The position numbers were made by a program, and so were the translations under genes. This document shows, in pieces, positions 1,303-63,096 of a stretch of DNA of 64,000 nt. Location: assembly GCA_031459915.1 (NCBI GenBank), contig JAVKHO010000003.1, positions 122,594-186,593 of the forward strand, given 5' to 3'. Under the pieces are notes generated by a model that saw only the letters and a program-made list of their open reading frames with translations, did not search any database and was not told the origin of the DNA. The stretch comes from Candidatus Tepidifontimicrobium thermophilum (GTDB taxonomy: Bacteria > Sysuimicrobiota > Sysuimicrobiia > Sysuimicrobiales > Sysuimicrobiaceae). How positions within the stretch are numbered: the first letter of the stretch is position 1; each line of letters opens with the position of its first letter.

Positions 1303-1348
1303 AAAGCCCGAGGGGGCCTCGGCTTGAGGAACCTCCCCCTCGGGCTTT
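1303..1348 (-). terminator. Riboswitch expression-platform hairpin, mutually exclusive with the aptamer 3' end
   Basis: Perfect 14-bp inverted repeat AAAGCCCGAGGGGG (1303-1316) / CCCCCTCGGGCTTT (1335-1348); U-tract is short. Confidence 0.7.
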
Positions 1349-1441
1349 TGTCCCGACGGTGTAGCGAGTCCGGAAACCCGCCTGCGCCGCTCGGTCCAGG
1401 CCGGCCGGGGTTGGGCCGCGGAACCCTAGGCGCACTTCCTC
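1326..1441 (-). ncRNA. ykkC-family riboswitch aptamer, probably the ppGpp-sensing subtype 2a
   Basis: Minus strand GAGGAAGTGCGCCTAGGGTTCCG...GGACCGAGCGGCGCA...ACACCGTCGGGACAAAAGCCCGAGGGGGAGGTTCCTC has the ykkC landmarks plus the closing P0 stem GAGGAA/TTCCTC; upstream of glutamate synthase. Confidence 0.88.
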
Positions 1442-45128: not shown

Positions 45129-45836
45129 GTGGAGACGCGCCTGGGCCCGCGGCCCCCAAGCGCGCCGCCGCTTCCGGGGGACACCCGGGACTACCGGACC
45201 GTCCGGGCGCTGGTACGTATCCTGCTGTGGTTCCTGTTTGGCTTTCGAACCGCGGGGCACGAGTTCTGTCCCCAGCGTGGACCGGCCATCGTGGCCGCCA
45301 ACCACCGGTCGTGGCTGGATCCCGTGGTGCTGGCGGCGGCGCTGCCCCGGCGCGCGGTGTTCCTGGGAGCGGAGGAGCTGCTGGGCCAGCGCCTGACGCC
45401 AGGATTCGTACCGTGGGATCCTCTGATCCGGGTGATCGCTCCCTTCGTGCGCTGGTACGGGTTCATCCCGGTCCGCCGCACGGAGGTGGACCCCGGGGCG
45501 TACACCGGAGCGGGCTTCCGTGCAGCCCTTCAGGTCCTCGAGGCCGGGGGGCTACTGGCCCTGTTCCCGGAGGGCGGAGTCAACCGCACGGACCAACCCC
45601 TGGCGCCGCTGCGCCGCGGGGTTGCGGCGCTGAGCCTGCGCACGGGCGCGCCCGTGGTGCCCGCGTGGCTCTACGGGACGGACCGAGCGCTGCCCCTGGG
45701 CAGCGTGGTGCCACGGCCCCGGAGGGTTTCGGTGCGGTTCGGAACGCCCGTACCGCCACGGGCGGAAGGTGAGGACGCCCTGCTGGCCAGGGTCCGCCAC
45801 GCGCTGCTGGAACTCTACGCCGCGGGCCCGCCCTGA
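45129..45836 (+). CDS. Lysophospholipid acyltransferase (PlsC family)
   Basis: ANHRSWLD and LFPEG motifs; start approximate. Confidence 0.85.
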   Translation: METRLGPRPPSAPPLPGDTRDYRTVRALVRILLWFLFGFRTAGHEFCPQRGPAIVAANHRSWLDPVVLAAALPRRAVFLGAEELLGQRLTPGFVPWDPLIRVIAPFVRWYGFIPVRRTEVDPGAYTGAGFRAALQVLEAGGLLALFPEGGVNRTDQPLAPLRRGVAALSLRTGAPVVPAWLYGTDRALPLGSVVPRPRRVSVRFGTPVPPRAEGEDALLARVRHALLELYAAGPP

Positions 45837-46618
45837 GGGCGGTCAACGGCGGAGGGCCGGTGTGCCGCATACAGACCGAGGCCCGTAAACGCCAGCCCAC
45901 CCACCACGTTGCCCGCCGTCACCGGAACCTGGTTCCACAGCCACCAGTCCGCCACCGACACCGGGGCTCCGGAGAGCATCCCCGCCGGGATGACAAACAG
46001 GTTCACCACGGAGTGCTCGAACCCCTGGCCGAAGAAGGTGACAATGGGGAGCCACATGGCCGCGATCTTCCCGCCGGTGCTGTGGGAAGTGAAGGAGAGG
46101 ACCACCCCGAGGGTCACCATCCAGTTGCACAGGACGGCCTTGACGAAAGCGGCCCGCAACCCCACCCACCCCAGTTGCGCGTACCCCGCGGTCTTGGCCT
46201 CCGCCACCGTCGCCAGCTGCTGCGCCATGGGGGAACCGGGCCCCATCGTGGCCGCGAACAGCAGCGCGTAGCTTACAGCTCCCAGCAGGTTGCCCAGGAA
46301 CGCCCAGCTCCAGTTGCGGCACAGGTGCGTCCACCTGGCCCGTCCTTCCAGCACCGCCAGGGGCACCAGGGCGAAGTTCCCCGTGACCAGTTCGAGGCCG
46401 AGGAGCACGATCATCACGAACCCTGCGGGGAAGACCAGGGCCCCTGCGAGGGGGATCCGCGTCTGGAGGGTCGCGGTGAAAGCCAGGGTGGTGGCAAAGC
46501 CGAGCAGCGCACCCGACAGGAAACCTCGAAGGACCAGTTCACGGGGCCGCAGCTGCGCTTTCGCGGCCCCAGCCTCCACCATCTGCTGCACCACCGCGTC
46601 CGGCCGCACGTACGACAT
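45815..46618 (-). CDS. Formate/nitrite transporter (NirC-like)
   Basis: GLELVTGNF, GNLLG, LCNWMV, FEHSVVN, GNVVGG; follows nitrite reductase. Confidence 0.9.
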   Translation of the reverse strand: MSYVRPDAVVQQMVEAGAAKAQLRPRELVLRGFLSGALLGFATTLAFTATLQTRIPLAGALVFPAGFVMIVLLGLELVTGNFALVPLAVLEGRARWTHLCRNWSWAFLGNLLGAVSYALLFAATMGPGSPMAQQLATVAEAKTAGYAQLGWVGLRAAFVKAVLCNWMVTLGVVLSFTSHSTGGKIAAMWLPIVTFFGQGFEHSVVNLFVIPAGMLSGAPVSVADWWLWNQVPVTAGNVVGGLAFTGLGLYAAHRPSAVDRPQGGPAA

Positions 46619-46619
46619 G

Positions 46620-48476
46620 TCAGGCTCCCTCCCCCGCGACCACGATGATCCCATCCTGGCCCTCCTGGATGGGGTACGTGCGGAGGTGCAGAGAAGGGTC
46701 GGTCTCGCACCGGCCGGTGCGCAGGCAGAAACGGTAGCCGTGCTCCGGGCAGATGATGTGGGTCCCGTCCACGACGCCCCTGGCGAGAGGCGCCCCCGCG
46801 TGGGGACAGGCGTTCTGCACCGCGTACACCGCCCCCTCGCACCGGAACACCGCCACCTCTTGTCCGTTCACCCGCACGACCCGTGCCCCACTGTCTGGAA
46901 GCTGCGCCAGCGGGACGACGGGCTTTTCCAAGTCCGCTTCGCGGGAGGCGGAGAAGCTGCTTGGGCCGGCCCTCAGCCGCGTGCGCAGCTCCTCGAAGTT
47001 GCCGTACCGCAGGAGGGCCTCGAGGATCGGTTCCAGGGCGTCGCAGGGCACGTCCCCGAGGAGCCTGACCGCCGGGGTGGCGTTGGGCCCGCTGCTGCCG
47101 GCTATGTACACGTCTACCGCCTCTACCACCTCGGTCCCGAGCCGGACCTTCTTGCCCACCAGCCCCACGTCCGCGGCACCGTGGTTGCCGCAGCCTGCCG
47201 GACACCCGGACCAGTGGACGGTGACCGGTCGCGCGACCCGGTCCTGCAACGCCCGGGCGAGGGCCAGGGCTCGCCTCTTCGTGTCGATGAGGGCGAGGTT
47301 GCAGTAATCCGTACCCGTGCAGCTCACCAGGCCCCGAAGGATCGGCGGGGGCGACGGCTGCAGCTCCCGCAGGAGGGGTTCGTCCAGCAGGGCTGCCAAC
47401 CGCTCCTCCGGCACATGGGGGAGGATGGCGTTCTGACTGGTGGTGAACCGGACCTCGCCTGAACCGTAGACCTCGCTCAGCCGCGCGAGCTCCTCGAGCT
47501 GCTCGGCCCGGATGCGGCCGACGGGTACCAGGAGGCCCACCGAGTAATGACCGTCCTGCTTCTGCGGTGTCACGCCCAGGTGGTCGGAATGTGTGGGATG
47601 GCGAGCGTCCCTTCCGGACCGCGGGAGGGGGTGGCCCAGGTACTCCTCCACCGCGGCCCGGAACCGCTCGAGCCCCCACGCGTCCAGCAGGAAGCTCAGC
47701 CGTGCCCTGCTGCGGGCCTCCCGTGGTCCGTGCTCCCGGAACACCGCCACGATGGCGGCGCACACCCCTGGGGCCCCTTCGGGGCTCACGAAGGCGTCCA
47801 GGGGCGAGGCGATCCGGTACCCTCCCGATCCCATCTTCCCGCCCACGAGGATGTTGAACCCGACCTCCCGGTCGCGCACGGCGGGGACCAGGGCCAGGTC
47901 CTGGGTCTCCGCGTGCGTGCAGTTCTCCACGCAGCCGGTGATGGTGACGTTGAACTTGCGGGGCAGGTTCGTGTACGACCGGTTGCCTAGCACCTCTTCC
48001 GTAAAGGCCTTCACCACGGCCGAGGCGTCCAGCAGCTCCGTGCGCACCAGCCCGGCCAGCGGGCACCCCACCACGTTCCGGACGTTGTCCATCCCCGTCT
48101 GGAGGGTGGTGAGCCCCACCCGCTGCAGCTGCGCCAGGATCTCGGGGACCTGCTCGATGCGGATCCACCGGAGCTGGACCTGCTGGCGCGTGGTGATGTC
48201 CGCGATTCCGCGGCCCACCTGCTGGCTGAGGGCGGCGAGTTCCCGGACCTGGTTCGCGGTGGCGATCCCGTTCGGGATGCGGACCCGCAGCATGAAGTAG
48301 CCGGGTTCCCCTTCGCTCTGACGGCGGAGGAAGACGCCCCACCACTTCAGCCGCTCCACGTCCTCCTTGGGGATCGCCTCCCACCCCAGCCGTGCGTACA
48401 GGCGGATGTCGACGTCCAGGCCGTCGCGGACGGTCTTGAGGGCTTCGATGGTGTTCGCCGCACCGTTCCCCGTCAT
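46620..48476 (-). CDS. nirA: Ferredoxin-type assimilatory nitrite reductase with fused C-terminal Rieske [2Fe-2S] domain
   Basis: TTRQQVQ, GMDNVRN, NLPRKFN, SCTGTDYCN, SGCPAGCG; then NACPHAG...CPEHG. Confidence 0.88.
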   Translation of the reverse strand: MTGNGAANTIEALKTVRDGLDVDIRLYARLGWEAIPKEDVERLKWWGVFLRRQSEGEPGYFMLRVRIPNGIATANQVRELAALSQQVGRGIADITTRQQVQLRWIRIEQVPEILAQLQRVGLTTLQTGMDNVRNVVGCPLAGLVRTELLDASAVVKAFTEEVLGNRSYTNLPRKFNVTITGCVENCTHAETQDLALVPAVRDREVGFNILVGGKMGSGGYRIASPLDAFVSPEGAPGVCAAIVAVFREHGPREARSRARLSFLLDAWGLERFRAAVEEYLGHPLPRSGRDARHPTHSDHLGVTPQKQDGHYSVGLLVPVGRIRAEQLEELARLSEVYGSGEVRFTTSQNAILPHVPEERLAALLDEPLLRELQPSPPPILRGLVSCTGTDYCNLALIDTKRRALALARALQDRVARPVTVHWSGCPAGCGNHGAADVGLVGKKVRLGTEVVEAVDVYIAGSSGPNATPAVRLLGDVPCDALEPILEALLRYGNFEELRTRLRAGPSSFSASREADLEKPVVPLAQLPDSGARVVRVNGQEVAVFRCEGAVYAVQNACPHAGAPLARGVVDGTHIICPEHGYRFCLRTGRCETDPSLHLRTYPIQEGQDGIIVVAGEGA

Positions 48477-48750: not shown

Positions 48751-48779
48751 TTGACGGCTGGCCGGGTGCTCGCTAGAGT
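48751..48779 (+). promoter_or_regulatory. sigma70-type promoter of the sulfate assimilation operon
   Basis: TTGACG-17 nt-TAGAGT. Confidence 0.75.
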
Positions 48780-48985: not shown

Positions 48986-50155
48986 GTGGTCGCACCCCAC
49001 GGGGGTCGTCTGGTACAGCGCGTGGCGGAAGGCGCTCAGGCCGCGTCCCTGCGGTCGGAGGCCGCGCGGCTGCCTGTGGTGGAGGCCAGTCCCAGGGAGG
49101 CTGCGGACGTGGTCCTGCTGGCCACGGGAGCCTACAGCCCGCTGGAAGGGTTCATGGACCGGGAGACGTACCGGTCGGTCCTGCACACCTTGCACCTGCC
49201 CGACGGGCTCCCGTGGACCCTCCCCGTCACCCTGTCCGTGCCCGCGGACCAGGCGCGCGGGCTCGGACCCGGGAGCCGCGTGTGCGTGCGCGCTCCCGGC
49301 CTGCTGGCGGTGGTGGAGGTGGAGGAGGCGTACCGCCGGGATCTGGAGGAGGAGGCCCGGGCGGTGTTCGGGACCACCGACCGCGCCCATCCGGGCGTGG
49401 CGCGTCTGCTGGGCGAATCCCCGTGGACGGTAGCGGGCCCGGTGTGGCTGGTGGAACGCCCCCGCGGGCGGTTCGCAGATCGAGAGCTGGACCCCGTGCA
49501 GACCCGGGAACTGTTCCAGCGGGCAGGCTGGCGCACGGTCACCGCTTTCCAGACCCGCAACCCCATCCACCGCGCCCACGAGTACCTCCACAAGTGTGCC
49601 CTGGAGACCACGGACGGGTTGTTCCTCCACCCGCTGGTGGGCGAGACGAAGGAGGACGACGTGCCCGCGGAGGTGCGGATGCGGTCGTACGAGGTGCTGC
49701 TGGAGCTGTACTACCCTCGCGATCGCGTGGTGCTGGCCGCGTTCCCGGCCGCCATGCGGTACGCGGGCCCTCGGGAGGCGGTGTTCCACGCCCTCGTGCG
49801 GAAGAACTACGGCTGCACCCACATCCTCATCGGACGGGACCACGCGGGAGTCGGGGGGTTCTACGACCCGTACGCCGCCCACCGGATCTTCGATCGGTTC
49901 GACCCGAGCCGGCTCGGCATCACGCCGGTGTTCTTCGGGGAGGCGTTCTACTGCCGCCGGTGCGACGCCATGGCCACGGATCGCAGCTGCCCGCATCCGC
50001 CGGACGTCCGGGTGAACCCCAGCGGCACGTGGGTGCGGCGGCTGCTCCGGTCCGGCCAGCTGCCGCCGCCGCAGGTGATGCGGCCGGAGGTGGCGCAGGT
50101 GCTGCGGGACCACTTTTTCCGCGGGTCCCCCGAGCTGGCGGAGCAGGCGGGCTGA
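48986..50155 (+). CDS. sat: Sulfate adenylyltransferase (ATP sulfurylase)
   Basis: PHGGRL, SPLEGFM, AFQTRNPIHRAHEY, MRYAGPREA, GRDHAG, Zn site CRRC..CPH. Confidence 0.95.
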   Translation: MVAPHGGRLVQRVAEGAQAASLRSEAARLPVVEASPREAADVVLLATGAYSPLEGFMDRETYRSVLHTLHLPDGLPWTLPVTLSVPADQARGLGPGSRVCVRAPGLLAVVEVEEAYRRDLEEEARAVFGTTDRAHPGVARLLGESPWTVAGPVWLVERPRGRFADRELDPVQTRELFQRAGWRTVTAFQTRNPIHRAHEYLHKCALETTDGLFLHPLVGETKEDDVPAEVRMRSYEVLLELYYPRDRVVLAAFPAAMRYAGPREAVFHALVRKNYGCTHILIGRDHAGVGGFYDPYAAHRIFDRFDPSRLGITPVFFGEAFYCRRCDAMATDRSCPHPPDVRVNPSGTWVRRLLRSGQLPPPQVMRPEVAQVLRDHFFRGSPELAEQAG

Positions 50156-50169
50156 GGGAGGGAGGAACC

Positions 50170-52092
50170 ATGGCGCAGGTGCAGACCGTATCCCAGCCCA
50201 CGTGGGAGGTCGTGCTCAGGCGCAACTCCATCGAGCGGCTCAAGCAGGAGAAGTTCCCCCTCGACATCGTGCACGAGCTGCCGAGCCTGATCGCGCGCGG
50301 CTACGAGGCCATCCCGGAGGAGGACATCGTCCGGCTGAACTGGTGGGGGCTGACCCACGACAAGCCGAAGGTGGGGACCTTCATGGTCCGCATCAAGGTC
50401 CCCGGTGGGCGCATCACGCCGGCGCAGCTGGTGGGGGTCGGCGAGATCGCCCGGCGCTACGGCCGGAACTACGGGGAGCTCACCACCCGGCAGGGAATCC
50501 AGCTCCACTGGGTACGGCTCGAGCAGCTCCCCGAGGTCCTGTCCGCGGTGCAGGCCACGGGGCTCACCACCGTGGGCGGGGAAGGGGATACCGTCCGCAA
50601 CGTGACCAGCTGCCCCGTGGCAGGGGTGGACCGGGACGAGCTGTTCGACGTGCGGCCCGTGGTACAGGCCGTGGCGCAGTTCTTCTACGGCCACCGCGAC
50701 TACTCCAACCTGCCCCGCAAGCACAAGTACACCCTCAGCGCCTGCCCCGCACAGTGCAACGCCCCCGAGATCCACGACGTGGCCCTGGTCGGCGTGGTGA
50801 AGGAGGGGCGGCCGGGGTTTGCGGTGCGGGTGGGCGGAGGGCTTTCCGCCACGCCCCGGATCAGCCGGGACCTGGGCGTGTTCGTGCCCGCGCAGCCCGT
50901 AGACGGTGTGGTGGAGGTGTTGCGGGCCATCACCGACGTCTGGCAGAACGACCTGCGTTACCGCCTCAGCCGCGCGAAGGCGCGGATCAAGTTCCTCGTG
51001 GACGACTACGGACCGGAGGCGGTGCGCGCGATGGTGGAGGCCCGGTTGGGGCGGCGACTGGAGGACGGGCGGGCGCCGGAGCCGGCGCACGACACGGATC
51101 ACCTGGGGATCCACCCCCAGAAGCAGGAGGGCCACGTGTACGTGGGGGTGCCGGTGCCCATGGGCTGGGTCTCCGGCGACCAGCTGGTGGCGCTCGGGGA
51201 GCTGGTGGGTTCCTTCGGCGGGGAAGTCCGATTCACCCGCATGCAGAACCTGATCGTCACCCACGTGCCGGAGGACCGGCTGGAGCAGGTCCTGCAGCAG
51301 CTGGCCCGGATCGGCCTAGATCCGCGCCGGAACCCCGTGTACGGCCGTTCCACCGCGTGCACCGACCACCGCTTCTGCAACTACTCCGTGGCGGAGACCA
51401 AGGGCAAGCTGAGGGAGATCCTCGGGGTGCTGGAGCGGCGGTTCGGCGACGCGGTGGGTGAGCTGCGGATCTACATGGACGGCTGCCCGCACGCCTGCGC
51501 GCACCACTGGGTTGCCGACATCGGCCTACAGGGGACCACCGTGGTGCACCCGGAGCGGGGAGTTCGGGTGGAGGCGTACGACGTGTGCCTTCGGGGCGGG
51601 CTGGGGACGCGGGCGGCCATCGGGAAGCCTTTGATCCGGCGCGTGCCGGAAGACCGCATCGTGGAGGTGGTCTGCCGCCTGGTGGAGGGATGGCTGCGGG
51701 AACGTGCCCGGCGCGGGCAGCTGGCGTTCCGGGACTTCGTGGACGCGCACACCGACGAAGAGCTGCGGGCGCTGGCCATGGGCGAGGCGACCCTGGGGGA
51801 GGAACCGCCCCGGCGTCCCGTGGTCCGGGTGCCCGGGATGCTGCTGGCCTACAGCGGCGGCGCGGACCGGCTGGAGGTGGACGCCCGCACGGTGCGGGAG
51901 GCCCTGGAGGCGCTGCGGGCTCAGTACCCGCAGCTGGTGGCGCAGATTCTGACGCCGGACGGCAACGTGCACCCCAGCGTGAACCTGTTCGTGGGCGAGG
52001 AGGACGTGCGGGGCCTGGGCGGGCTGGACGCCCCTGTGCGCCCCGGAGACGAGCTCACCATCCTGCCCGCGCTGGCGGGCGGCGCGTGCTGA
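50170..52092 (+). CDS. Siroheme sulfite reductase (Sir/NirA family) fused to a C-terminal MoaD/CysO-like ubiquitin-fold domain
   Basis: TTRQGIQ, GDTVRN, NLPRKHK, ACTDHRFCN, DGCPHACA; C-terminal VRVPGML...NLFVGEEDVR...ILPALAGGAC. Confidence 0.88.
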   Translation: MAQVQTVSQPTWEVVLRRNSIERLKQEKFPLDIVHELPSLIARGYEAIPEEDIVRLNWWGLTHDKPKVGTFMVRIKVPGGRITPAQLVGVGEIARRYGRNYGELTTRQGIQLHWVRLEQLPEVLSAVQATGLTTVGGEGDTVRNVTSCPVAGVDRDELFDVRPVVQAVAQFFYGHRDYSNLPRKHKYTLSACPAQCNAPEIHDVALVGVVKEGRPGFAVRVGGGLSATPRISRDLGVFVPAQPVDGVVEVLRAITDVWQNDLRYRLSRAKARIKFLVDDYGPEAVRAMVEARLGRRLEDGRAPEPAHDTDHLGIHPQKQEGHVYVGVPVPMGWVSGDQLVALGELVGSFGGEVRFTRMQNLIVTHVPEDRLEQVLQQLARIGLDPRRNPVYGRSTACTDHRFCNYSVAETKGKLREILGVLERRFGDAVGELRIYMDGCPHACAHHWVADIGLQGTTVVHPERGVRVEAYDVCLRGGLGTRAAIGKPLIRRVPEDRIVEVVCRLVEGWLRERARRGQLAFRDFVDAHTDEELRALAMGEATLGEEPPRRPVVRVPGMLLAYSGGADRLEVDARTVREALEALRAQYPQLVAQILTPDGNVHPSVNLFVGEEDVRGLGGLDAPVRPGDELTILPALAGGAC

Positions 52093-52102
52093 GGAGGAGG
52101 CT

Positions 52103-52906
52103 GTGGCCAGGACGGTTGTCTTCGACGACCTGGAGATCGGCGAGATCGCCGTGGAGCTGGACGACCGGGAGCCCCAGGAGGTGATCGCGTGGGCCCTCGA
52201 GACCTTCGAGGACCGGGTGGCCGTGGTCACGGCCCTGCAGGCGGAGGGGATGGCGATCCTGGACATGGCTACCCGCCTGCGGCGGGACGTGCGGGTGATC
52301 ACGGTGGACACCGGACGCCTGCCCCAGGCCACGTACGCCTTCCTGGACCAGGTCCGCGAGCACTACCCGCACGCGAGGTGGGAGGTGCTCTTTCCCGACC
52401 GCCGGGAGGTGGAGGCCATGGTCCGGCGCCACGGGGCCAATCTGTTCTACCGCTCCGTGCCCCTGCGCCTGCTGTGCTGCCAGGTGCGGAAGGTCCGGCC
52501 CCTGGTCCGGGGCCTGGAGCAGCTGGACGCGTGGATCACCGGGCTGCGCCGGGAGCAGTGGGCTTCAAGGGCCAACATCCGCAAGGTGGAGCTGGACCAC
52601 GACCACGACGGCATCGTGAAGGTCAACCCGCTGGCGGACTGGACCAAGGAGGAGGTGTGGGAGTACCTCCGGTCGCACGGGGTCCCGGTGCACCCCCTGT
52701 ACGCGCAGGGCTACACCAGCATCGGCTGTGACCCGTGCACGCGGCCCATCCAGCCTGGGGAGGACGACCGGGCCGGCCGGTGGTGGTGGGAACAGGGCGC
52801 CCCCAAGGAGTGCGGCATCCACTGCCCCATCGAGACGGGCGGCTTCGAGCACGAGGCCCACGCCATCCTCGGGGAAGCGCACGGGCTGGAGGAGGTCCGG
52901 CAGTGA
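52103..52906 (+). CDS. cysH: APS/PAPS reductase with [4Fe-4S] APS-type cysteine pattern
   Basis: DTGRL, CC..RK, TGLRREQ, GYTSIGCDPC, RAGRW, KECGIH. Confidence 0.92.
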   Translation: MARTVVFDDLEIGEIAVELDDREPQEVIAWALETFEDRVAVVTALQAEGMAILDMATRLRRDVRVITVDTGRLPQATYAFLDQVREHYPHARWEVLFPDRREVEAMVRRHGANLFYRSVPLRLLCCQVRKVRPLVRGLEQLDAWITGLRREQWASRANIRKVELDHDHDGIVKVNPLADWTKEEVWEYLRSHGVPVHPLYAQGYTSIGCDPCTRPIQPGEDDRAGRWWWEQGAPKECGIHCPIETGGFEHEAHAILGEAHGLEEVRQ

Positions 52907-53931
52907 CGGGCGCGGCGGGTCGGTGGGAGCTGAGCGCGGAAGCGGCGGAGCTGGTGGCGCAGGAGGTGCTGGCGCTGGCCCAGATGCTGCCCGAGGCGCA
53001 GCGGGAACGGGCGCTGGCAGCTGCGGAGCGCGTGCGGCGGGGCGAGCTGGCGGAGGACCTGGTGGACGTGGTGGAGTCGGCGGTGGCGCTGTCCCTGCAG
53101 ACGGGCCGGGCGCGACGGCGGTACCGGGCGGAGGGCGAGCGGCTGCTCACCGACGTCCTGTGGAGCACCCCTCGGGGCCAGGCGCTCCAGGCGAGGTTGG
53201 CGGCCACGAACCGGGCGCTGCGCGGGCTGCGGGGCCGGCGGCTCGAGGACGTCCGGGTGAGCGCCCGGACCCTGGGCGACTACACCGTGGCCCTCCGGGC
53301 CGAGGGCCTGACGGTCACCCTGGCGGCGCGGGCCGACGGGGTGGAGGTGGAGAGCGTGTCCGTAGAGGGCGGGCAGAGTGGGAGCCGGGGCGTTTGCGTG
53401 TGGTTCACCGGGCTTTCTGGCGCCGGCAAGAGCACCGTGGCCGAGCTCGTGGCGGAACGCCTCCGCAGCCAGGGCCTGGCGGTGGAGGTCCTGGACGGCG
53501 ACTCGGTCCGACAGCACTTCTCCCGGGGTCTCGGCTTCTCGCGGGAGGACCGGCTGGAGAACGTGCGGCGGGTTGCGTACGTGGCGGGGCTGTTGGTGCG
53601 CCACGGGGTGGTGGTGCTGGTGGCCCTGATCTCCCCGTACCGGGAAGCGCGCGCGCAGGCCCGGCAGATGGTCGGGGACTTCCTGGAAGTCTACGTCCGG
53701 TGCCCGCTGGACGTGCTGGTGGCGCGGGATCCCAAGGGGTTGTACGCGCGGGCCCTGCGGGGCGAGGTTCCCAACTTCACAGGGGTGAGCGACCCGTACG
53801 AGGAGCCCGAGGCCCCGGACCTCGTGGTGGACACCGACCGCGAAACCCCCGAGCACAGCGCAGCTCGGGTGGTGGAGCTGCTGGCCGAGCGTGGCTACGT
53901 GCCGCGGGCGAGCGCAGGGCTGTCGGGATGA
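52903..53931 (+). CDS. cysC: Adenylyl-sulfate kinase with a ~155-aa N-terminal domain of unknown function
   Basis: WFTGLSGAGKST, LDGD, LGFSREDR, ISPY, RDPKGLY, FTGVSDPYE in the C-terminal half. Confidence 0.88.
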   Translation: MTGAAGRWELSAEAAELVAQEVLALAQMLPEAQRERALAAAERVRRGELAEDLVDVVESAVALSLQTGRARRRYRAEGERLLTDVLWSTPRGQALQARLAATNRALRGLRGRRLEDVRVSARTLGDYTVALRAEGLTVTLAARADGVEVESVSVEGGQSGSRGVCVWFTGLSGAGKSTVAELVAERLRSQGLAVEVLDGDSVRQHFSRGLGFSREDRLENVRRVAYVAGLLVRHGVVVLVALISPYREARAQARQMVGDFLEVYVRCPLDVLVARDPKGLYARALRGEVPNFTGVSDPYEEPEAPDLVVDTDRETPEHSAARVVELLAERGYVPRASAGLSG

Positions 53932-54734
53932 GCTGGCGCGTCCTCCTGCTGGAGTCCCGGTGGCCGGAGATCCTGTCGGACCTGGTCCGGCGGCACGGCG
54001 GGGAGCCGGTGTGCGCGCCCGCGGTGGAGGAGGTACCTGCTCCGGCGGAGGAACTGGCGGACCCGCTGGGTCGCCTGTCCTCCGGGAAGGTGGACTGGGC
54101 GGTGTTCCTCACGGGCGTGGGTGTGCAGCGGCTGTATGACGCGGCTCGTGTCCTGGGCATGGCGGAGGCGTTCGTGGAGGCGCTGCGGCGGCTGCCGGTG
54201 GCGGTACGGGGCCCCAAGCCGGTGGCGGTGTTGAGCCGGTGGGGGGTCCGGCCGCAGGTCTCTGCCCCGAGCCCCCACACCACGGCAGAGCTTTGTCAGG
54301 TCCTGCAAGCGGTAGAGCTGCGGGACCAGCGGGTGTTCGTCCAGCACTACGGTGAACCCAACCAGCGGCTTCGCGACTACTTGCTGCGGCGAGGCGCCCA
54401 GGTGGTGGACGCGCTGCCCTACCGCTGGGCGGTGCCTCGCGAGGCCGGGCGGCTGATCGGGGCAGTCCGGGCGCTGGCCGCGGGAGAGGTGGACGCGCTG
54501 GTGGTCACCAGCCGGCCTCAGGTGCTGCACCTCCTCCAGGTGGCGGAGCGGCAAGGGCTGGGTGAGGCGGTCCGGGAGGCCCTCAACGGCCGTGTGGTGG
54601 TGGCCGCGGTGGGTCCCACGAGCCGGGCGACCCTGGAGGATTACGGGATCCGGGTGGCCGTGACTCCGGAGCACCCCAAGATGGCGCCCCTGGTGGCGGC
54701 GCTGGCCGCGCACCGGGGCACGAGGGAGGACTAG
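53928..54734 (+). CDS. hemD: Uroporphyrinogen-III synthase
   Basis: LESR, FLTGVG, RGPKP, QHYG, PYRW, TSRPQV, AVGP. Confidence 0.82.
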   Translation: MSWRVLLLESRWPEILSDLVRRHGGEPVCAPAVEEVPAPAEELADPLGRLSSGKVDWAVFLTGVGVQRLYDAARVLGMAEAFVEALRRLPVAVRGPKPVAVLSRWGVRPQVSAPSPHTTAELCQVLQAVELRDQRVFVQHYGEPNQRLRDYLLRRGAQVVDALPYRWAVPREAGRLIGAVRALAAGEVDALVVTSRPQVLHLLQVAERQGLGEAVREALNGRVVVAAVGPTSRATLEDYGIRVAVTPEHPKMAPLVAALAAHRGTRED

Positions 54735-55366
54735 TGTACTACCCCCTCTTCGTGGACCTCGCAGGCCGTCGTTGCGTGGTCGTGGGCGGCGGCGCCATGG
54801 CCGAGCCCAAGGTGGAAGCGCTGGTGGAGTGCGGCGCAGAGGTGGTGGTCATCAGCCCGCAGGTGACCGAAAAGATCCGGCGCTGGGTCGAGGAGGGCCG
54901 GCTGCGCTGGGAGCCTAGAGCTTACCGTCTCGGAGACCTGGAGGGAGCGTGGCTCGTGGTGTCCGCGCCAGACGACCGGAGCTTGAACAGGGCGGTGTGG
55001 GAAGAAGCCCAGGCGAGGAGGGTCTGGGTGAACGCGGTGGACGACCCCCCGCACTGCAGCTTCATCGCTCCGGCCGTCTACCGTCAGGGCGAGCTGGTGC
55101 TGGCTGTCTCCACCTCCGGAAAGGCGCCCGCGCTGGCGGTGCGGCTGCGGGACCGGTTGGCGGCTCAGCTCGGCCCGGAGTACGCGGCGTTCCTGGAACT
55201 CGCGGCGGAGCTGCGGGGGGAGCTGGTCCGGCGGGTTCCGCAGTTCGAACGCCGCCGCGCCCTGTGGTACCGGATTCTGGACTCCGGGGTGCTGGACGAC
55301 CTTCAGGCAGGCGCGCGCGAGCGGGCCAGGGAGCGGTTCCTCCAGTTGGTGGAGGAGTGGGCGTGA
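54734..55366 (+). CDS. Precorrin-2 dehydrogenase/sirohydrochlorin ferrochelatase (CysG-B/SirC-like)
   Basis: YYPLFVDL, VVGGG, NAVDDP..CSFIAP, STSGKAPALA. Confidence 0.9.
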   Translation: MYYPLFVDLAGRRCVVVGGGAMAEPKVEALVECGAEVVVISPQVTEKIRRWVEEGRLRWEPRAYRLGDLEGAWLVVSAPDDRSLNRAVWEEAQARRVWVNAVDDPPHCSFIAPAVYRQGELVLAVSTSGKAPALAVRLRDRLAAQLGPEYAAFLELAAELRGELVRRVPQFERRRALWYRILDSGVLDDLQAGARERARERFLQLVEEWA

Positions 55367-56127
55367 CCGGGAAGGTGTTCCTGGTGGGCGCGGGGCCCGG
55401 CGACCCCGAGCTCATCACTGTCCGGGGTCTGCGGGTGCTGCGGAGCGCGGACGTGGTGGTGTACGACCGGCTGGTGCACCCGGCTCTGCTGGAGGCAGCA
55501 CCGTCTTCCGCGGAGCGGGTCTTCGCGGGCAAGCACCCTGATGGTCCGCGCGTCGCACAGGACGAGATCGTGCGGCTGCTGGTGGACCGGGCCCGGAGAG
55601 GCCTTCAGGTGGTCCGGCTCAAGGGGGGCGACCCCTTCGTGTTCGGCCGCGGGGGTGAGGAGGTCGAGGCGCTGCGCGCCGCAGGCGTGCCCTACGAGGT
55701 GATCCCGGGCGTCACCGCGGCGGTGGCGGTACCCGCGGCCGCGGAGATCCCGGTCACCCACCGGGCCTACGCCTCGGGCTTCTCGGTGGTCACCGGCCAC
55801 CCCTGCGACGGCGGGACGGGCCTGGACTGGTCGGCCCTGGCCCGCATGCCCACCTTGGTGGTGCTCATGGGGCTGCGCCGGCTGCCCCTGGTGGTGGCAC
55901 GCCTTTTGGACTCCGGTGCCGACCCTTCGGTCCCCGCGGCCATGATCGCGCGCGGTACGCTCCCCGATCAGCGGGTGGTGATGGGGACCCTCGGCACCAT
56001 CGCCCGGAGGGTGGAGGAGGCCGGGCTGCAGCCCCCGGCCACCCTCGTGGTGGGACGGGTGGTGGAGCTGTGCCGTTCGGCCGTGGCGGCCCCGAACCCC
56101 ACGGGCCCGGAAAGGGGTGCGGTGTGA
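55363..56127 (+). CDS. cobA: Uroporphyrinogen-III C-methyltransferase
   Basis: VGAGPGDPELIT, YDRLV, RLKGGDPFVFGRGGEE, PVTHR. Confidence 0.93.
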   Translation: MTGKVFLVGAGPGDPELITVRGLRVLRSADVVVYDRLVHPALLEAAPSSAERVFAGKHPDGPRVAQDEIVRLLVDRARRGLQVVRLKGGDPFVFGRGGEEVEALRAAGVPYEVIPGVTAAVAVPAAAEIPVTHRAYASGFSVVTGHPCDGGTGLDWSALARMPTLVVLMGLRRLPLVVARLLDSGADPSVPAAMIARGTLPDQRVVMGTLGTIARRVEEAGLQPPATLVVGRVVELCRSAVAAPNPTGPERGAV

Positions 56128-56140
56128 GCGAGGAAGCGGC

Positions 56141-56890
56141 ATGCTGGCCCTCCTGGTCCTGCTGGCCTTCGGGGCAGGCTTCCTGGACAGCGCCCTGGGG
56201 ATGGGGTACGGGACCGTGCTCGGTCCGTTGCTCCTGGCCGCGGGGTACCGCCTGCCGGAGGTCGTTCCCGCCTTGTTGCTGTCTCAGGTGATGGCCGGGC
56301 TGGTGGGTGCGCGGTTCCACCACGCCAACGGCAACGCCTCCTTCGCCCGAGACTCCCTTCACCTGCGGGTGGCTGCGGTGCTGGTGGCCGCGGGGCTGGC
56401 GGGAGGGCTGCTGGGCCCCTGGGTGGCGCAGCAGGCGGAAGAGAAACTGTTGCGCGCGTACATGGCGGTGATGATCGTGGGGCTCGGCCTGTGGGTCCTG
56501 GTGGGGCGGACCGCGCGGGAGTTCTCGTGGGCGAGACTGGTGACCCTCGGGGCCGTCGCCTCGGTGAACAAGGCGCTCACGGGGGGTGGCTACGGGCCTT
56601 TGATCGCCGCAGGGCAGATGGTGGCGGGACTGGACCCGAAGGCCTCGGTGGCCATCACGAACCTGGCCGAGGCGGTCGTCTCCCTGGTGGCGGTGGCAAG
56701 CTACGCGTGGTGGTTCTCGGCCTCCTGGCGGTGGGATCTGGTGCTGGCGGTCACCTGCGGCGCGGTGCTGGCGGTTCCCCTGGGCGTGCGGACGGTACGG
56801 CTCGCGGGTGCAGGACGCCTGAGGGGTTGGGTGGCCACCGCCACGGTGTGCCTGGGCCTGGTGGCCTTCGTGTCGGGGCGCGGTGGCTAG
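56141..56890 (+). CDS. TauE/SafE family sulfur-compound transporter
   Basis: DSALGMGYG, GGGYGP; about 8 TM helices. Confidence 0.85.
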   Translation: MLALLVLLAFGAGFLDSALGMGYGTVLGPLLLAAGYRLPEVVPALLLSQVMAGLVGARFHHANGNASFARDSLHLRVAAVLVAAGLAGGLLGPWVAQQAEEKLLRAYMAVMIVGLGLWVLVGRTAREFSWARLVTLGAVASVNKALTGGGYGPLIAAGQMVAGLDPKASVAITNLAEAVVSLVAVASYAWWFSASWRWDLVLAVTCGAVLAVPLGVRTVRLAGAGRLRGWVATATVCLGLVAFVSGRGG

Positions 56891-57232: not shown

Positions 57233-57343
57233 GTCCCCTGCGAAGCTCACCCTGTCTCCGCTGACCACGGCGGGGATCCGTGCGCTCTCCTGGCGCCGCG
57301 TCCCGCCTATGCACCACAGACCGTGGAACCCGGAGGTGGACGG

Positions 57344-58210
57344 ATGGCTTCGTACGCACGGCCGGACGTTTTGGTGGAGACAGACTGGCTGGCGCAGCGC
57401 CTGGGTGACCCGGGTCTGCGGATCGTGGAGTCCAACGAGGATCCGGAGCTGTACGCGCAGGGGCACATCCCGGGCGCGATCCACATCCGGTGGAAGACCG
57501 ACCTGCAGGACCCCGTGCGCCGGGACTGGGTTTCCCGGGAGCAACTGGAGGACCTGCTGGGGGCGCGGGGCATCGGCAACGCGCACACCATCATCCTGTA
57601 CGGCGACCGGAACAACTGGTTCGCCACCTACACCTTCTGGCTGTTGCAGTACTACGGAGTGGAGAACCTGAAGATCCTGAACGGGGGTCGGCAGAAGTGG
57701 ATCGCGGAGGGCCGCCCCCTGACCACGGAGGTGCCGCAGTACCCACCTGCCCCCTTCCGGGCGAAGGACCCGGATCCCGCCCTGCGAGCGTTCCGGGACG
57801 AGATCCTCCAGCGCTTGCAGGATCCGGCGCTCGCCCTGGTGGACGTCCGCTCCCCGCAGGAATACCGCGGTGAGCTGATCGCGCCGCCCGGGTACCCACA
57901 GGAGGGGGCGCAGCGGCCCGGACACATCCCGCGTGCCGTGAACATTCCCTGGACCCACAACGTCCGGGAGGACGGGACCTTCAAGTCCGCGGAAGAACTG
58001 CGGGCGCTGTACGAGTCGGTGGGGATCACCCCGGACAGGGAGGTGGTCGCGTACTGCCGGATCGGGGAGCGCAGCAGCCTCACCTGGTTTACCTTGAAGG
58101 TCCTGCTGGGTTACCCGAACGTGAAGAACTACGACGGCAGCTGGACCGAGTGGGGCAGCCTCGTGGGCGTCCCCGTGGAGCGCGCTGCAGCGGGCGAGGC
58201 CCAGCCGTAG
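57344..58210 (+). CDS. Tandem-domain rhodanese/thiosulfate sulfurtransferase (CysA2/SseA-like)
   Basis: YARPDVLVETDWL, GHIPGA, DVRSPQEY, YCRIGERSS, YDGSWTEW. Confidence 0.93.
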   Translation: MASYARPDVLVETDWLAQRLGDPGLRIVESNEDPELYAQGHIPGAIHIRWKTDLQDPVRRDWVSREQLEDLLGARGIGNAHTIILYGDRNNWFATYTFWLLQYYGVENLKILNGGRQKWIAEGRPLTTEVPQYPPAPFRAKDPDPALRAFRDEILQRLQDPALALVDVRSPQEYRGELIAPPGYPQEGAQRPGHIPRAVNIPWTHNVREDGTFKSAEELRALYESVGITPDREVVAYCRIGERSSLTWFTLKVLLGYPNVKNYDGSWTEWGSLVGVPVERAAAGEAQP

Positions 58211-58213
58211 GGG

Positions 58214-58666
58214 GTGAAGGGGTTGCAGCGGGTGGACCACAACGCGCTACGGACCAACCAAGCCTGCATCGTGGGCTTCACGGTGCTCGCGTTCCTTCTG
58301 GACCGGTTGTGGCTCGTGGCCGCGGTGGCCCTGGTGCTGCTCGTGGGGACTGCGCATCCACGCCTGGCCCTGTTCCAGCAGGTCTACCATCGGTGGCTGA
58401 AGGGGCGGGTCCTGAAACCGGACGAGCGGGAGGACGACCCTGCGCCTCACCGCTTCGCTCAGGGCATGGGTGGGAGCGTGCTGCTGCTGGCCGCTGTGAG
58501 TCTGTGGGGCGGGTACACGATCCTGGGTTGGTTGCTGGCGTGGCTGGTGGCGGTTCTGGCCGCGGTCAACCTGCTGGCTGGCTTCTGCACAGGGTGCTTT
58601 GTCTTCTACCAGCTCACCCGCCTCGGGGTGATCCGCCGGGGAGGTCCCGCGCACGGAGGGCCGTGA
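58214..58666 (+). CDS. DUF4395 family membrane protein
   Basis: EDDPAPHRFAQGMG, AAVNLLAGFCTGC. Confidence 0.85.
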   Translation: MKGLQRVDHNALRTNQACIVGFTVLAFLLDRLWLVAAVALVLLVGTAHPRLALFQQVYHRWLKGRVLKPDEREDDPAPHRFAQGMGGSVLLLAAVSLWGGYTILGWLLAWLVAVLAAVNLLAGFCTGCFVFYQLTRLGVIRRGGPAHGGP

Positions 58667-59091
58667 TGGAACGGGCGCTGGTGGTCCTGCTGGTGGGCGC
58701 GGCGGTGGCCGCGGGAGCGGCATGGCTACGGTGGCGGGAACGCCGTGTCCGGGCACACGTGCACGTGCCCGGAGGGCCCGCGGTGATCGCCTTCACCCAC
58801 CGGCTGTGCGCGCCGTGTCGTAGCCAGCAGCTCCCGGCCTTAAAGCGCCTGCAGGAGCTCGTAGACTCCCACGTGCGGGTGGAGGTGGTGGACGTGGAGC
58901 GTGACCCGCACCTCGCCCGCCGGTTCGGGGTCTTTACGGTTCCCTCTACCGTAGTGGTCGGGCCGGACGGACGGGTGGTGGCGTTCAACCACGGCTTCGC
59001 GGACGAGGCCAGGCTCCTGCGGCAGCTGGGCCGGACGGGCCCGGAGGGGGTGCCCGACCTTCTTCGGAATCCCGGCCCGGAGGTCACATGA
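58666..59091 (+). CDS. Membrane-anchored thioredoxin-like protein
   Basis: N-terminal TM, FTHRLCAPC, GVFTVPST. Confidence 0.85.
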   Translation: MERALVVLLVGAAVAAGAAWLRWRERRVRAHVHVPGGPAVIAFTHRLCAPCRSQQLPALKRLQELVDSHVRVEVVDVERDPHLARRFGVFTVPSTVVVGPDGRVVAFNHGFADEARLLRQLGRTGPEGVPDLLRNPGPEVT

Positions 59092-61119: not shown

Positions 61120-63096
61120 ATGGTGGCGAACCCTCGGCGCTGGAGGAGGGATCCGGACCCCGCGCCCGGGCCGGCCGGGCGCCTCACCCACCCCTTGGTC
61201 CGCAGGGACGGACGCCTGGTTCGGGCCAGTTGGGAGGAGGCCCTAGACCACGCCGCGGAGGGGTTGCGGCGGATCCGGGAGCGATACGGCGGGCAGGGGT
61301 TCGGGCTTTTCAGCTGCTCCAAGTCCACCAACGAGCTCAACTACCTGGCCGGGAAGTTCGCCCGTCAGGTGATGGGCTCCAACAACGTGGATAGCTGCAA
61401 CCGCACCTGACACGCCCCCAGCGTCGCCGGTCTGGCGGCGGTGTTCGGGGCGGGCGGGGGAACCAACTCCTACCGGGAGATGGAGGAGACGAATCTGATC
61501 CTCCTGTGGGGCTCTAATGCCCGGGAGACCCACCCGGTGATGTTCCTCCACATGCTCAAAGGCGTTCGGAACGGCGCGCGCCTGGTGGTGGTCGATCCCC
61601 GGCGGACCTCCAGCGTGGCATTTGCTCACCGGTGGCTTCCCGTGCGGGTGGGGACGGACATCGCGCTCGCCAACGCCATGGGCCGGTACATCATCCACGA
61701 GGGACTCCTGAACGAGGAGTTCGTCCGGGAAGCTACGGAGGGGTTCGCCCGATACCGGGAGGCGGTGGAGCCCTACACCCTGGAGCGCGCGGAGGCCATC
61801 ACCGGGGTCCCCCGAGAGCTCATCGCGGCCACCGCTCGGGAGTACGCCACGGCTCCCCGGGCCATGATCTGCTGGACGCTGGGCATCACGGAGCACCACA
61901 ATGCGGTGGACACCGTCTTCAGCCTCACCAACCTGGCGCTTCTGACCGGGCACGTGGGCCGGTACGGGTCCGGCCTCAATCCCCTCCGGGGGCAGAATAA
62001 CGTCCAGGGCGGAGGGGACATGGGGGCGCTGCCGAACCGGCTTGTGGGGTTCCAGAACGTGGAAGACCCCGAAGTGCGGGCCCGGTTCGAGCGGGCCTGG
62101 GGTTGCACCATCCCGCCGAAGGCGGGCTGGCACCTGACGGCCATGTACGACGCCATGGAGAAGGGGTTGCTCCGGGGCCTGTACGTGATCGGCGAGAACC
62201 CCGTGTGCTCCGACGCCAACGCCACCCGCATCCTCCGGCTGTTCCAAGAGCTCGAGTTCCTGGTGGTGCAGGACCTTTTCCTCACCCCCACCGCCGAACT
62301 GGCGAACGTAGTGTTCCCTGCGGCAGCGGCCTGGTGTGAATCGGAGGGCACCGTCACCAGTAGCGAGCGGCGGGTGCAGCGGGTGCGCAAGGCCCTGGAT
62401 CCCCCGGGGGAGGCCCGGGACGACCTGTGGATCCTCCAGCAGCTGGCGCGGCGCCTCGGGCGGGAGTGGGATTACCCCGATGCGGAGGCGGTGTGGAACG
62501 AGGTGCGGGAACTTTCGCCGCTGCACCGGGGCATGAGTTACCGGCGCCTGGAGGAGCTCGGCGGGATCCAGTGGCCTTGCCCCACTGAGGACCACCCGGG
62601 CGAGCTGTTCCTGCATGGCCGGCTGTGGAAGCGCCCGGTAGAAGGCCCGCGGGCTCCCTTCGTGCCCACCCACTACGAGCCGCCGGTGGACGAGGTGAAC
62701 GAGGACTATCCGCTTCTTCTGACGACCGGGCGGCGGCTGTACTTCTTCAACACGGGCGTACAGACGGCCCTGTACGGGGCCCCGGTGCCGCAGGAGGAAT
62801 ACCTCGTCCTGCACCCGCGCGACGCCGGCCGGTACGGCATCGCGCACGGGGACCGTGTGCGGGTCTCCTCCCGGAGGGGGTCCGTGGAGGCTACCGCGTG
62901 GGTGGAGTCCACGGTCGCGCCTGGGCTGTGCTTCATGACCCTGCACTTCCCGGAGAAGACTCCCACCAACGTGCTCACCGTGGATGCCGCAGACCCCAAG
63001 TCCGGGACCGCGGAGTTCAAGGCCACCGCGGTCCGGGTGGAGCGGATCCCGAGGGAGCGCGTCCCGGCGGAGGCCACTAGGGAGGGGGCCCCGTGA
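61120..63096 (+). CDS. Selenocysteine-containing Mo/W-bisPGD formate dehydrogenase alpha subunit
   Basis: ORFs 61120-61410 and 61441-63096 are in frame; TGA 61408-61410 lies in DSCNRT-U-HAPSV; PLRGQNNVQG; SECIS-like hairpin follows. Confidence 0.9.
61421..61440 (+). promoter_or_regulatory. Bacterial SECIS element
   Basis: CGTCGCC-GGTCT-GGCGGCG stem about 11 nt after UGA, with the apical GGTCT seen in the fdhF-type SECIS. Confidence 0.75.

What the first reader, a model, noticed from the sequence alone, without database searches (positions are those of the whole stretch)
50170..52092. Sulfite reductase fused to a ubiquitin-like sulfur carrier with a capped GG-AC tail
Seen: after the siroheme/[4Fe-4S] domains, a ~90-aa MoaD/ThiS/CysO-like domain (about 51817-52092) ends ILPALAGG-AC-stop. 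Known: such carriers work as C-terminal Gly thiocarboxylates, and extended tails are trimmed by JAMM proteases (HcyS/HcyD; CysO/Mec). Inference: sulfide may be channelled from the reductase onto a tethered carrier for Cys/Hcy synthesis, or the terminal Cys may carry a persulfide. No cysteine synthase, E1-like activator or JAMM gene is in this operon.
Basis: partly seen in the sequence, partly recalled or inferred. Interest (0 to 1): 0.8.

Follow-up and report, generated by a model that had tools for sequence, protein, structure and literature searches.

The report
Sulfite reductase with tethered sulfur carrier
This sulfate-assimilation gene joins a sulfite reductase to a CysO-type sulfur-carrier domain, a widespread fusion first noted in 2006; the carrier likely captures the enzyme's own sulfide for cysteine and methionine synthesis, and a conserved protein of unknown function is encoded two genes downstream.

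Summary
The fusion is real. One 640-aa frame joins a ferredoxin-type sulfite reductase to a CysO-like domain ending GG-AC; contigs from three other studies match the junction or the tail.

The architecture is in print (Iyer et al. 2006), and this scan noted it on another genome.

GG is kept in 120 of 120 homologues. The terminal Cys is not: 72 of 118 end at GG and 12 have a Cys in the tail, so the persulfide idea fails.

The partners missing from the operon lie elsewhere in the genome: MoeZ, a Mec-type JAMM beside CysM and a free CysO-like carrier, and a SAM-riboswitch thrB–metM-like operon. CysE, MetX and MetY were not found.

Fused enzymes form one clade (79 fused, 1 loss), with the domain under purifying selection. 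It is an accessory: sister enzymes lack it, and 45 of 50 fusion genomes also encode a free carrier.

New here: a three-gene core of reductase, APS reductase and an unannotated ~150-aa protein with no Pfam or fold match.

Best reading (about 0.5): a trimmed, MoeZ-adenylated carrier captures nascent sulfide. I found no biochemical test.

The parts
50170..52092 (+). Sulfite reductase-CysO-type carrier fusion (640 aa)
50170..51789 (+). Siroheme/[4Fe-4S] reductase core (aa 1-540): CX5C...CX3C at C397/C403/C439/C443, Lys pair K184/K186 (sulfite-type), invariant R74, R107, R143; nearest solved structure M. tuberculosis 1ZJ8
   Evidence: the K-versus-N substrate rule is recalled
51790..51819 (+). Variable ~10-aa linker (low pLDDT, 4-7 of 10 identical in close relatives)
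51820..52083 (+). CysO/MetO-type beta-grasp domain (aa 551-638) ending in the invariant Gly-Gly (52078-52083)
   Evidence: dN/dS 0.10-0.32
52084..52089 (+). Ala-Cys cap after GG; not conserved
48986..50155 (+). Sulfate adenylyltransferase (Sat); start codon chosen from a GGAGG-like site
52103..52906 (+). [4Fe-4S] APS reductase (CysH) with CC, CxxC and ECGxxC; the extra Cys241 is invariant in 45 of 45 aligned
52903..53370 (+). Unannotated ~150-aa protein X (5 helices, 4 strands), here fused in front of APS kinase; stand-alone in most relatives
53380..53931 (+). APS kinase domain (CysC), same frame as X
53934..56127 (+). Siroheme genes: HemD-like, CysG N-terminal domain, CobA
56117..56890 (+). 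TauE/SafE membrane protein
57323..59091 (+). Tandem rhodanese, DUF4395 and thioredoxin-like genes after a 430-bp gap; seen in only 2 of 80 related loci
48751..48779 (+). Sigma-70-like promoter match upstream of sat (1 found, 0.2 expected)

Best explanation
This is a sulfite reductase with a CysO-type carrier domain attached, and the domain likely captures the enzyme's own sulfide as a C-terminal thiocarboxylate for cysteine and homocysteine synthesis. Shown: the fusion, the CysO-like fold, the invariant GG, purifying selection, and genes for every partner elsewhere in the genome. Inferred steps: (1) the Mec-type JAMM (C10) removes Ala-Cys to expose GG; (2) MoeZ (C5) adenylates it; (3) HS- released at the siroheme site attacks the acyl-adenylate, with the tether raising local concentration and limiting loss of volatile H2S; (4) the thiocarboxylate is used by CysM with O-phosphoserine (an SbnI-like kinase gene sits next to cysM) and/or by the MetM-like enzyme with O-phosphohomoserine; (5) JAMM releases the amino acid and resets the carrier. 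The domain is an accessory that links sulfate reduction to a carrier pathway the cell already has, and is not needed for sulfite reduction itself.
For: GG in 120 of 120 top homologues; tails 0 aa in 72, 1 aa in 5 and 2 aa in 41 of 118. Nearest solved structures are CysO proteins. Domain dN/dS is 0.10-0.32 in 6 of 6 pairs. One fused clade (support 99) with 79 fused and 1 unfused row across at least 7 phyla. The own genome (96% complete) has MoeZ-type E1+rhodanese; a cluster of CysO-like carrier, SbnI-like kinase, CysM, JAMM and Rrf2 on C10; and a SAM-I riboswitch before thrB and a MetM-like gene with no carrier of its own. CysE, MetX and MetY were not found, so the thiocarboxylate routes look like its main Cys/Met routes. 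In 50 fusion genomes: JAMM in 46 (14 of 15 tailed ones), E1 in 49. MoeZ follows in the same gene run in L062, and a MetM-like gene plus carrier precedes the fusion in L060. The only domain loss lies in a 5-row clade where JAMM was not found in 4 of 5 and MetM-like in 5 of 5, and the domain evolves faster there (dN carrier/core 2.3 versus 1.4). Known chemistry: CysO/MoeZR/CysM/Mec (PMC3227635, passages); MetO/MoeZ/Mec/MetM (PMC13759103 Table 2); JAMM trimming of post-GG tails (PMC5925218, passages).
Against: No biochemical test was found. JAMM and E1 are common anyway (controls 8 of 14 and 11 of 14), so their presence says little. No JAMM lies in any of 80 related loci, E1 in 1, CysK in 2 and MetM-like in 1. 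45 of 50 fusion genomes also have a free CysO-type carrier. Four relatives (G005, G007, G009, G018) keep MetM-like plus a free carrier without the fusion. The same reductase family works without the domain in 22 of 24 scorable Chloroflexota and 4 of 12 scorable Actinomycetota genomes. Four genomes of the JAMM/MetM-poor clade still keep GG under purifying selection, and the three searched have CysE and MetY, so another use is possible. The genome's only E1 has its own rhodanese domain, which offers a persulfide route that needs no tether.
Confidence: 0.5

Rival explanations
1. The domain is a working thiocarboxylate carrier but is loaded by the ordinary MoeZ-rhodanese persulfide route. The fusion only ties carrier supply to expression of the sulfate operon, with no channelling.
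For: The only E1 carries a rhodanese domain; MoeZR loads CysO (PMC3227635); a tandem rhodanese follows the operon; the linker is flexible and variable.
Against: 79 of 80 rows of the clade keep it fused rather than as a neighbouring gene, and none of the 20 unfused-family regions fetched had a separate carrier nearby (the one hit, L196, is itself fused). Co-expression alone would not need a covalent link.
Confidence: 0.2
2. The domain is a docking module. It binds MoeZ (or CysM/MetM) and holds it at the reductase so that sulfide loads the rhodanese Cys or the free carrier; the fused domain itself is rarely thiocarboxylated.
For: Free carriers exist in 45 of 50 fusion genomes. GG is internal in three reductase-carrier-APS reductase triple fusions. 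GG is kept in genomes where no JAMM was found.
Against: An exposed GG end in 72 of 118 homologues would be adenylated by a bound E1; exact GG conservation fits catalysis better than binding (inference).
Confidence: 0.12
3. The domain is a ubiquitin-like tag in cis. After E1 activation it joins the reductase covalently to a lysine on a partner (APS reductase, protein X or MoeZ), forming a reversible, JAMM-cleaved sulfate-reduction complex.
For: Three natural triple fusions join reductase-carrier-GG-linker to APS reductase (P0061, P0115, L043). The best NCBIfam match is SAMP1, below cut-off, and the JAMM's best match is desampylase, below cut-off. Conjugation by SAMP/TtuB proteins is recalled knowledge.
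Against: The nearest structures are CysO, not SAMP1. Fusion of neighbouring genes by stop loss explains the triples. Protein X has no conserved Lys.
Confidence: 0.08
4. The terminal Cys carries a persulfide.
For: The window protein ends in Cys; 8 of 76 complete GTDB fusions have a Cys in the tail, six as GG-C.
Against: Cys is in the tail of 12 of 118 homologues, and the 86-88% identical relatives end GA, AG, SR or AR.
Confidence: 0.03
5. The domain is vestigial, or serves another sulfur sink (thiamine, molybdopterin, tRNA thiolation).
For: It is lost once and absent from the sister clade; it is kept where Cys/Met thiocarboxylate enzymes were not found.
Against: dN/dS is far below 1. The genome has its own ThiS, MoaD-MoaE and TtuB-like carriers.
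Confidence: 0.07

Closest known systems
Sulfite reductase-ThiS/MoaD fusions of Nocardioides and Acidothermus cellulolyticus (Iyer, Burroughs & Aravind 2006, PMC1779556, text and Table 1 row 4e)
   Same: Same architecture: ubiquitin-like domain on the C-terminus of a sulfite reductase among sulfate-assimilation genes; the same guess of terminal sulfur transfer to the carrier (passages and section 12 read).
   Different: The paper names two actinobacteria and groups them with operons holding JAB, rhodanese-less E1, SirA and OAH sulfhydrylase. Here the fusion spans at least 7 phyla, 80 loci hold no JAB, and the constant neighbours are APS reductase and the unannotated protein X. I did not fetch the two named proteins.
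M. tuberculosis CysO / MoeZR / CysM / Mec cysteine pathway (PMC3227635, passages; PDB 3DWG)
   Same: Carrier fold and GG end (E 2e-12; target TM 0.88); the genome has MoeZ-type E1, CysM-like synthase and Mec-type JAMM.
   Different: CysO is a free 93-aa protein thought to be loaded through the MoeZR rhodanese. Here a second copy is tethered to the sulfide source and capped by two residues.
Streptomyces MetO / MoeZ / Mec / MetM homocysteine route (Hasebe et al. 2024; seen only as cited in PMC13759103 Table 2 and PMC12172450; the paper itself was not held)
   Same: The genome has a SAM-riboswitch-led ThrC-like gene beside thrB; orthologues sit next to a free carrier in 18 of 30 loci.
   Different: This genome's MetM-like operon has no carrier gene. 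The MetM assignment rests on context; I could not compare with the Streptomyces sequence.
Wolinella succinogenes HcyS/HcyD/HcyF/MetY with sulfite reductase (Krishnamoorthy & Begley 2011; recalled, not found in the library)
   Same: Recalled: a capped carrier is trimmed by a JAMM, adenylated and loaded with sulfide made by sulfite reductase.
   Different: Separate proteins in one operon with MetY as acceptor. Here carrier and reductase are one chain and MetY was not found.
Ferredoxin-type assimilatory sulfite reductase of M. tuberculosis (PDB 1ZJ8)
   Same: Nearest solved structure by sequence (E 5e-78) and by fold (target TM 0.87); same Lys-x-Lys motif.
   Different: About a third identical; no C-terminal carrier domain.

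Membership tests
Assimilatory siroheme sulfite reductase | CX5C...CX3C siroheme/[4Fe-4S] motif and duplicated NIR_SIR fold | tested here: met
   C397, C403, C439, C443 invariant in 28 of 28; motif per PMC10229431; fold
Assimilatory siroheme sulfite reductase | Sulfite-type active site (Arg residues plus Lys-x-Lys) rather than nitrite-type Lys-x-Asn | tested here: met
   K184 and K186 invariant; the window's nitrite-type paralogue has K-x-N. The K/N rule is recalled; sat, cysH and siroheme neighbours agree.
Assimilatory siroheme sulfite reductase | Curated NCBIfam sulfite-reductase cut-off | tested here: not met
   All 13 matched models are below cut-off; it is an unmodelled subfamily of the 1ZJ8 type
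Assimilatory siroheme sulfite reductase | Reduces sulfite to sulfide | not testable with these tools
   needs an assay
CysO/MetO-type sulfur-carrier protein | Beta-grasp fold nearest to CysO | tested here: met
CysO/MetO-type sulfur-carrier protein | C-terminal Gly-Gly, free or exposable | tested here: met
   GG in 120 of 120; free in 72 of 118, 1-2 aa cap in 46, internal in 2
CysO/MetO-type sulfur-carrier protein | E1, JAMM and a PLP acceptor encoded in the genome | tested here: met
   none is in the operon
CysO/MetO-type sulfur-carrier protein | Forms a thiocarboxylate used by CysM or MetM | not testable with these tools
   needs MS and an assay
Iyer 2006 sulfite reductase-ThiS fusion | ThiS/MoaD-like domain on the C-terminus of a sulfite reductase among sulfate-assimilation genes | tested here: met
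Iyer 2006 neighbourhood class 4e | JAB, rhodanese-less E1, SirA and OAH sulfhydrylase in the same neighbourhood | tested here: not met
   JAB in 0 of 80 loci, E1 in 1 of 80 and with rhodanese; MetY not found in the genome; SirA/TusA was not searched by family
Cys-persulfide carriers (TusA/DsrC type) | Conserved catalytic Cys on the carrier | tested here: not met
   no conserved Cys in the domain or tail
SAMP/TtuB protein modifiers | Forms isopeptide conjugates | not testable with these tools
   SAMP1 model 55.7 bits against cut-off 60

The most novel reading that the evidence does not exclude
A three-protein sulfate-reduction complex (sulfite reductase, an APS reductase with an extra invariant Cys, and scaffold protein X of no known fold) passes sulfur from APS to amino acids without free sulfite or sulfide. 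The tethered ubiquitin-like arm takes sulfide at the siroheme and hands it to CysM or MetM, and may also link the reductase covalently to APS reductase, as the natural triple fusions mimic. This would be an assimilatory counterpart of DsrAB-DsrC built from a ubiquitin-like arm.
Probability: 0.15. Interest if true: 0.8.

Novelty: new member of a known kind. Interest (0 to 1): 0.4.

Why it matters
The sulfur source for CysO-type carriers is stated as unknown in PMC3227635 (2011). A single chain holding both the sulfide source and the carrier makes the channelling question directly testable by cis-versus-trans and isotope-dilution assays. A cultured thermophile, Pyrinomonas methylaliphatogenes, carries the same three-gene core. 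The conserved third gene defines an unannotated family tied to this sulfite-reductase subfamily. The fusion itself is not a new discovery.

Tried and rejected
Frameshift or assembly artefact: rejected.

Terminal-Cys persulfide: rejected.

Nitrite reductase: rejected on the Lys-x-Lys motif, the operon context and a separate NirA-Rieske paralogue next to an FNT channel.

Protein X as the carrier's partner: rejected, because X stays beside the reductase in 22 Chloroflexota and 4 Actinomycetota genomes where the domain is absent.

A family or fold for X: none in Pfam (best 4 of 54 members, weak) or NCBIfam; the ESM Atlas gave only unnamed clusters; Foldseek gave no match at E<=0.001; VIA-align best Z 6.3 on the four strands only. 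This does not show a new fold, and the helical part was not folded alone.

Tail-versus-JAMM link: uninformative (14 of 15 tailed versus 32 of 35 untailed).

Fusion replacing free-sulfide routes: 27 of 50 fusion genomes versus 5 of 22 unfused lacked both CysE (>=195 bits) and MetY, and within Chloroflexota 5 of 11 versus 5 of 22. The sets differ in completeness and kinship, so this is not used as support.

PF06426 was too insensitive for CysE (it missed a control that TIGR01172 found), so TIGR01172 was used.

A metagenome scan for X found no usable seed pattern. No riboswitch lies near the operon. Literature searches for a test of the fusion returned only Iyer 2006; subscription journals are mostly not held, and no supplements were read.

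Full report
OBSERVATION. Window 50170-52092 (+) is one open frame of 640 aa ending ILPALAGGAC-stop. Pfam finds NIR_SIR and NIR_SIR_ferr twice each and ThiS above cut-off at aa 568-638. An AF2 model from a 28-row alignment (mean pLDDT 85) has a reductase core, a low-confidence linker near aa 541-550, a compact domain at 551-633 and a disordered end. Foldseek matches the core to 1ZJ8 (target TM 0.87) and the small domain to CysO 3DWG_C (0.88) and 4N6E_B (0.89); sequence search agrees. Four runs were laid on 51500-52300. X9 and X10 cross the junction and X11 (RNA library) covers the tail, each with 0 differences; X5 may be the source sample.

THE ENZYME. The cluster motif CX5C...CX3C (C397, C403, C439, C443) and K184/K186 are invariant in 28 of 28 aligned proteins. 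PMC10229431 (passages) gives this motif and an Arg plus Lys-x-Lys pocket for assimilatory-type sulfite reductases. The window's second siroheme enzyme (46620-48476, minus strand, Rieske-fused, next to an FNT channel) has Lys-x-Asn, which I recall as nitrite-type. The neighbours are sat, APS reductase, APS kinase, siroheme genes and tauE. No curated NCBIfam model reaches its cut-off. The nearest named loci are labelled Armatimonadota, HR32 and Sysuimicrobium.

THE TAIL. Of the 120 best homologues listed (of 5822 found), all carry GG. 118 end near it: 72 at GG, 5 with one more residue and 41 with two; 12 have a Cys in the tail. Two (P0061, P0115) continue through GG into APS reductase, as does L043. 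Of 80 GTDB loci, 76 show a complete domain, 3 are cut by contig ends and 1 (L107) lacks it; 60 end at GG and 16 do not. Tails cluster in a 26-row clade containing the window, where 15 rows are tailed. The cap is therefore labile and the Cys incidental. Post-GG caps removed by JAMM proteases are described for QbsE and proposed for CxnE (PMC5925218, passages).

KNOWN ARCHITECTURE. PMC1779556 (passages and section 12) states that a distinct ThiS is fused to the C-terminus of sulfite reductase in Nocardioides and Acidothermus cellulolyticus, and suggests assimilated sulfur is transferred terminally to such carriers. Six other-wording searches found no test of the fusion; the library lacks most subscription papers and I read no supplements.

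PARTNERS IN THE GENOME (96% complete). There is one E1, MoeZ-type with rhodanese. Contig C10 holds a free CysO-like carrier with an 8-residue cap, an SbnI-like kinase (partial match, below cut-off), CysM (interrupted by an N run), a JAMM with an intact HSH-x7-S-x2-D motif and an Rrf2 regulator. Contig C30 holds a SAM-I riboswitch, thrB and a second ThrC-like gene with no carrier gene. A separate threonine synthase lies on C31. Orthologues of the C30 gene sit beside a free carrier in 18 of 30 loci. This fits MetM (PMC13759103 Table 2; PMC12172450 passages mention the riboswitch); I could not read the original paper or compare sequences. CysE, MetX and MetY were not found. The cell therefore appears to make Cys and Hcy through carriers.

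ACROSS GENOMES. I searched 50 of the 80 loci's genomes, chosen by me mainly for longer contigs and taxonomic spread, not filtered for completeness, and including unpublished G050. JAMM was found in 46, E1 in 49, CysE over cut-off in 8 (11 at >=195 bits), MetY in 18, MetM-like at >=54% identity in 32 and a free CysO-type carrier in 45. Controls show JAMM (8 of 14) and E1 (11 of 14) are common. Within the 80 loci (up to 10 kb each side, many short) JAMM occurs in 0, E1 in 1, CysK in 2 and MetM-like plus carrier in 1. Among 30 relatives, six have the full fusion and one a partial hit. G005, G007, G009 and G018 lack it yet keep MetM-like and a free carrier; G002's only carrier hit lies on a 1.9-kb contig and was not resolved. 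The fused domain is thus an addition to an existing pathway.

EVOLUTION. A FastTree tree of 101 reductase cores (L035, L094 and L195 left out as truncated; three outgroups) puts 79 fused rows plus L107 in one clade (99) and 18 unfused Chloroflexota rows in a sister group (97): two changes, against about 20 for shuffled labels. The fused rows were gathered by likeness to the query, and four unfused actinobacterial members found later are not in the tree. The domain's dN/dS is 0.10-0.32 against six relatives, the core's 0.05-0.19. The one loss lies in a five-row Micrococcales clade where JAMM was not found in 4 of 5, MetM-like in 5 of 5 and a free carrier in 4 of 5. There the domain's dN is 2.3 times the core's, against 1.4 in seven sister rows, but GG is kept in 4 of 4 and dN stays well below dS. 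This cuts both ways, and the pairs are not independent.

THE THIRD GENE. APS reductase follows the fusion in 75 of 80 loci, and the other 5 end too soon. An unannotated ~150-aa protein X follows in 62 of 80 by BLASTP, plus a partial copy in L073; the other 17 end too soon. In the window X is fused in front of APS kinase (52903-53931). X has no conserved Cys, no Pfam or NCBIfam family, a confident five-helix, four-strand model (pLDDT 94) and no clear fold match; 381 clusters at 50% identity match it. In even samples, 27 of 401 Chloroflexota genomes have X: 22 with an unfused reductase, 2 fused (one is the centre I chose) and 3 unscorable, including unpublished G253. 14 of 401 Actinomycetota have X: 8 fused (one the centre, one unpublished G050), 4 unfused, 1 too short, and 1 with X directly after the reductase (unpublished G572). 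X therefore belongs to the reductase and APS reductase pair, not to the carrier; a scaffold or accessory role is my inference. The APS reductase has an extra Cys four residues after the catalytic one, invariant in 45 of 45 aligned and absent from 2GOY and 7LHR.

MECHANISM AND VERDICT. Most likely (0.5) the cap is trimmed, MoeZ adenylates the GG, and sulfide from the adjacent siroheme forms the thiocarboxylate, which CysM or MetM uses. I recall the same chemistry with separate proteins from Wolinella. Rivals are co-expression with persulfide loading (0.2), docking of MoeZ (0.12), ubiquitin-like conjugation (0.08), a vestige or another sink (0.07) and a terminal-Cys persulfide (0.03). No binding model could be computed. 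This is a new member of a known, apparently untested architecture. Its value lies in being a clean test of sulfide channelling and in the orphan third gene. Interest 0.4.

Noticed in passing
window 52903-53370; L028-L107, L148-L176, L198-L210: Unannotated ~150-aa family (protein X) found beside this sulfite reductase subfamily wherever the locus could be scored, with or without the carrier domain; no Pfam or clear fold match; fused to APS kinase in the window's close relatives.
   Followed up: yes
window 52103-52906: APS reductase has an invariant extra Cys (ECGxxC) and conserved acidic N- and C-terminal extensions; might be a resolving Cys or a partner-binding site.
   Followed up: partly
P0061, P0115, L043:9950-12727: Triple fusion of sulfite reductase, carrier with internal GG, linker and APS reductase; resembles a JAMM-cleavable polyprotein.
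   Followed up: partly
L023:3126-6482 (G000:C10): Cluster of a CysO-like carrier with an 8-aa cap, SbnI-like serine kinase, CysM, JAMM and Rrf2: likely phosphoserine-based cysteine synthesis. The cysM gene has an N run with a duplicated stretch, probably an assembly gap.
   Followed up: partly
L012 / L197 (G000:C30:70925-73259): SAM-I riboswitch before thrB and a MetM-like gene with no carrier gene of its own.
   Followed up: partly
window 61120-63096: Formate dehydrogenase-like frame broken by one in-frame TGA at the position read as selenocysteine; the 5' part of the gene and SECIS were not examined.
   Followed up: partly
window 45815-48476 (-): Nitrite-type siroheme reductase fused to a C-terminal Rieske (NirD-like) domain, followed by an FNT channel, divergent from the sulfate operon.
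   Followed up: partly
L070, L078, L079, L080, L083, L086: Fusions ending GG-Cys, the same end as the CysO-cysteine product that Mec cleaves.
   Followed up: no
L039:5012-6883: Odd frame joining APS reductase to a partial reductase-carrier copy; probably a misassembly.
   Followed up: no
window 1334-1440 (-): Guanidine-I riboswitch at the gathering score.
   Followed up: no
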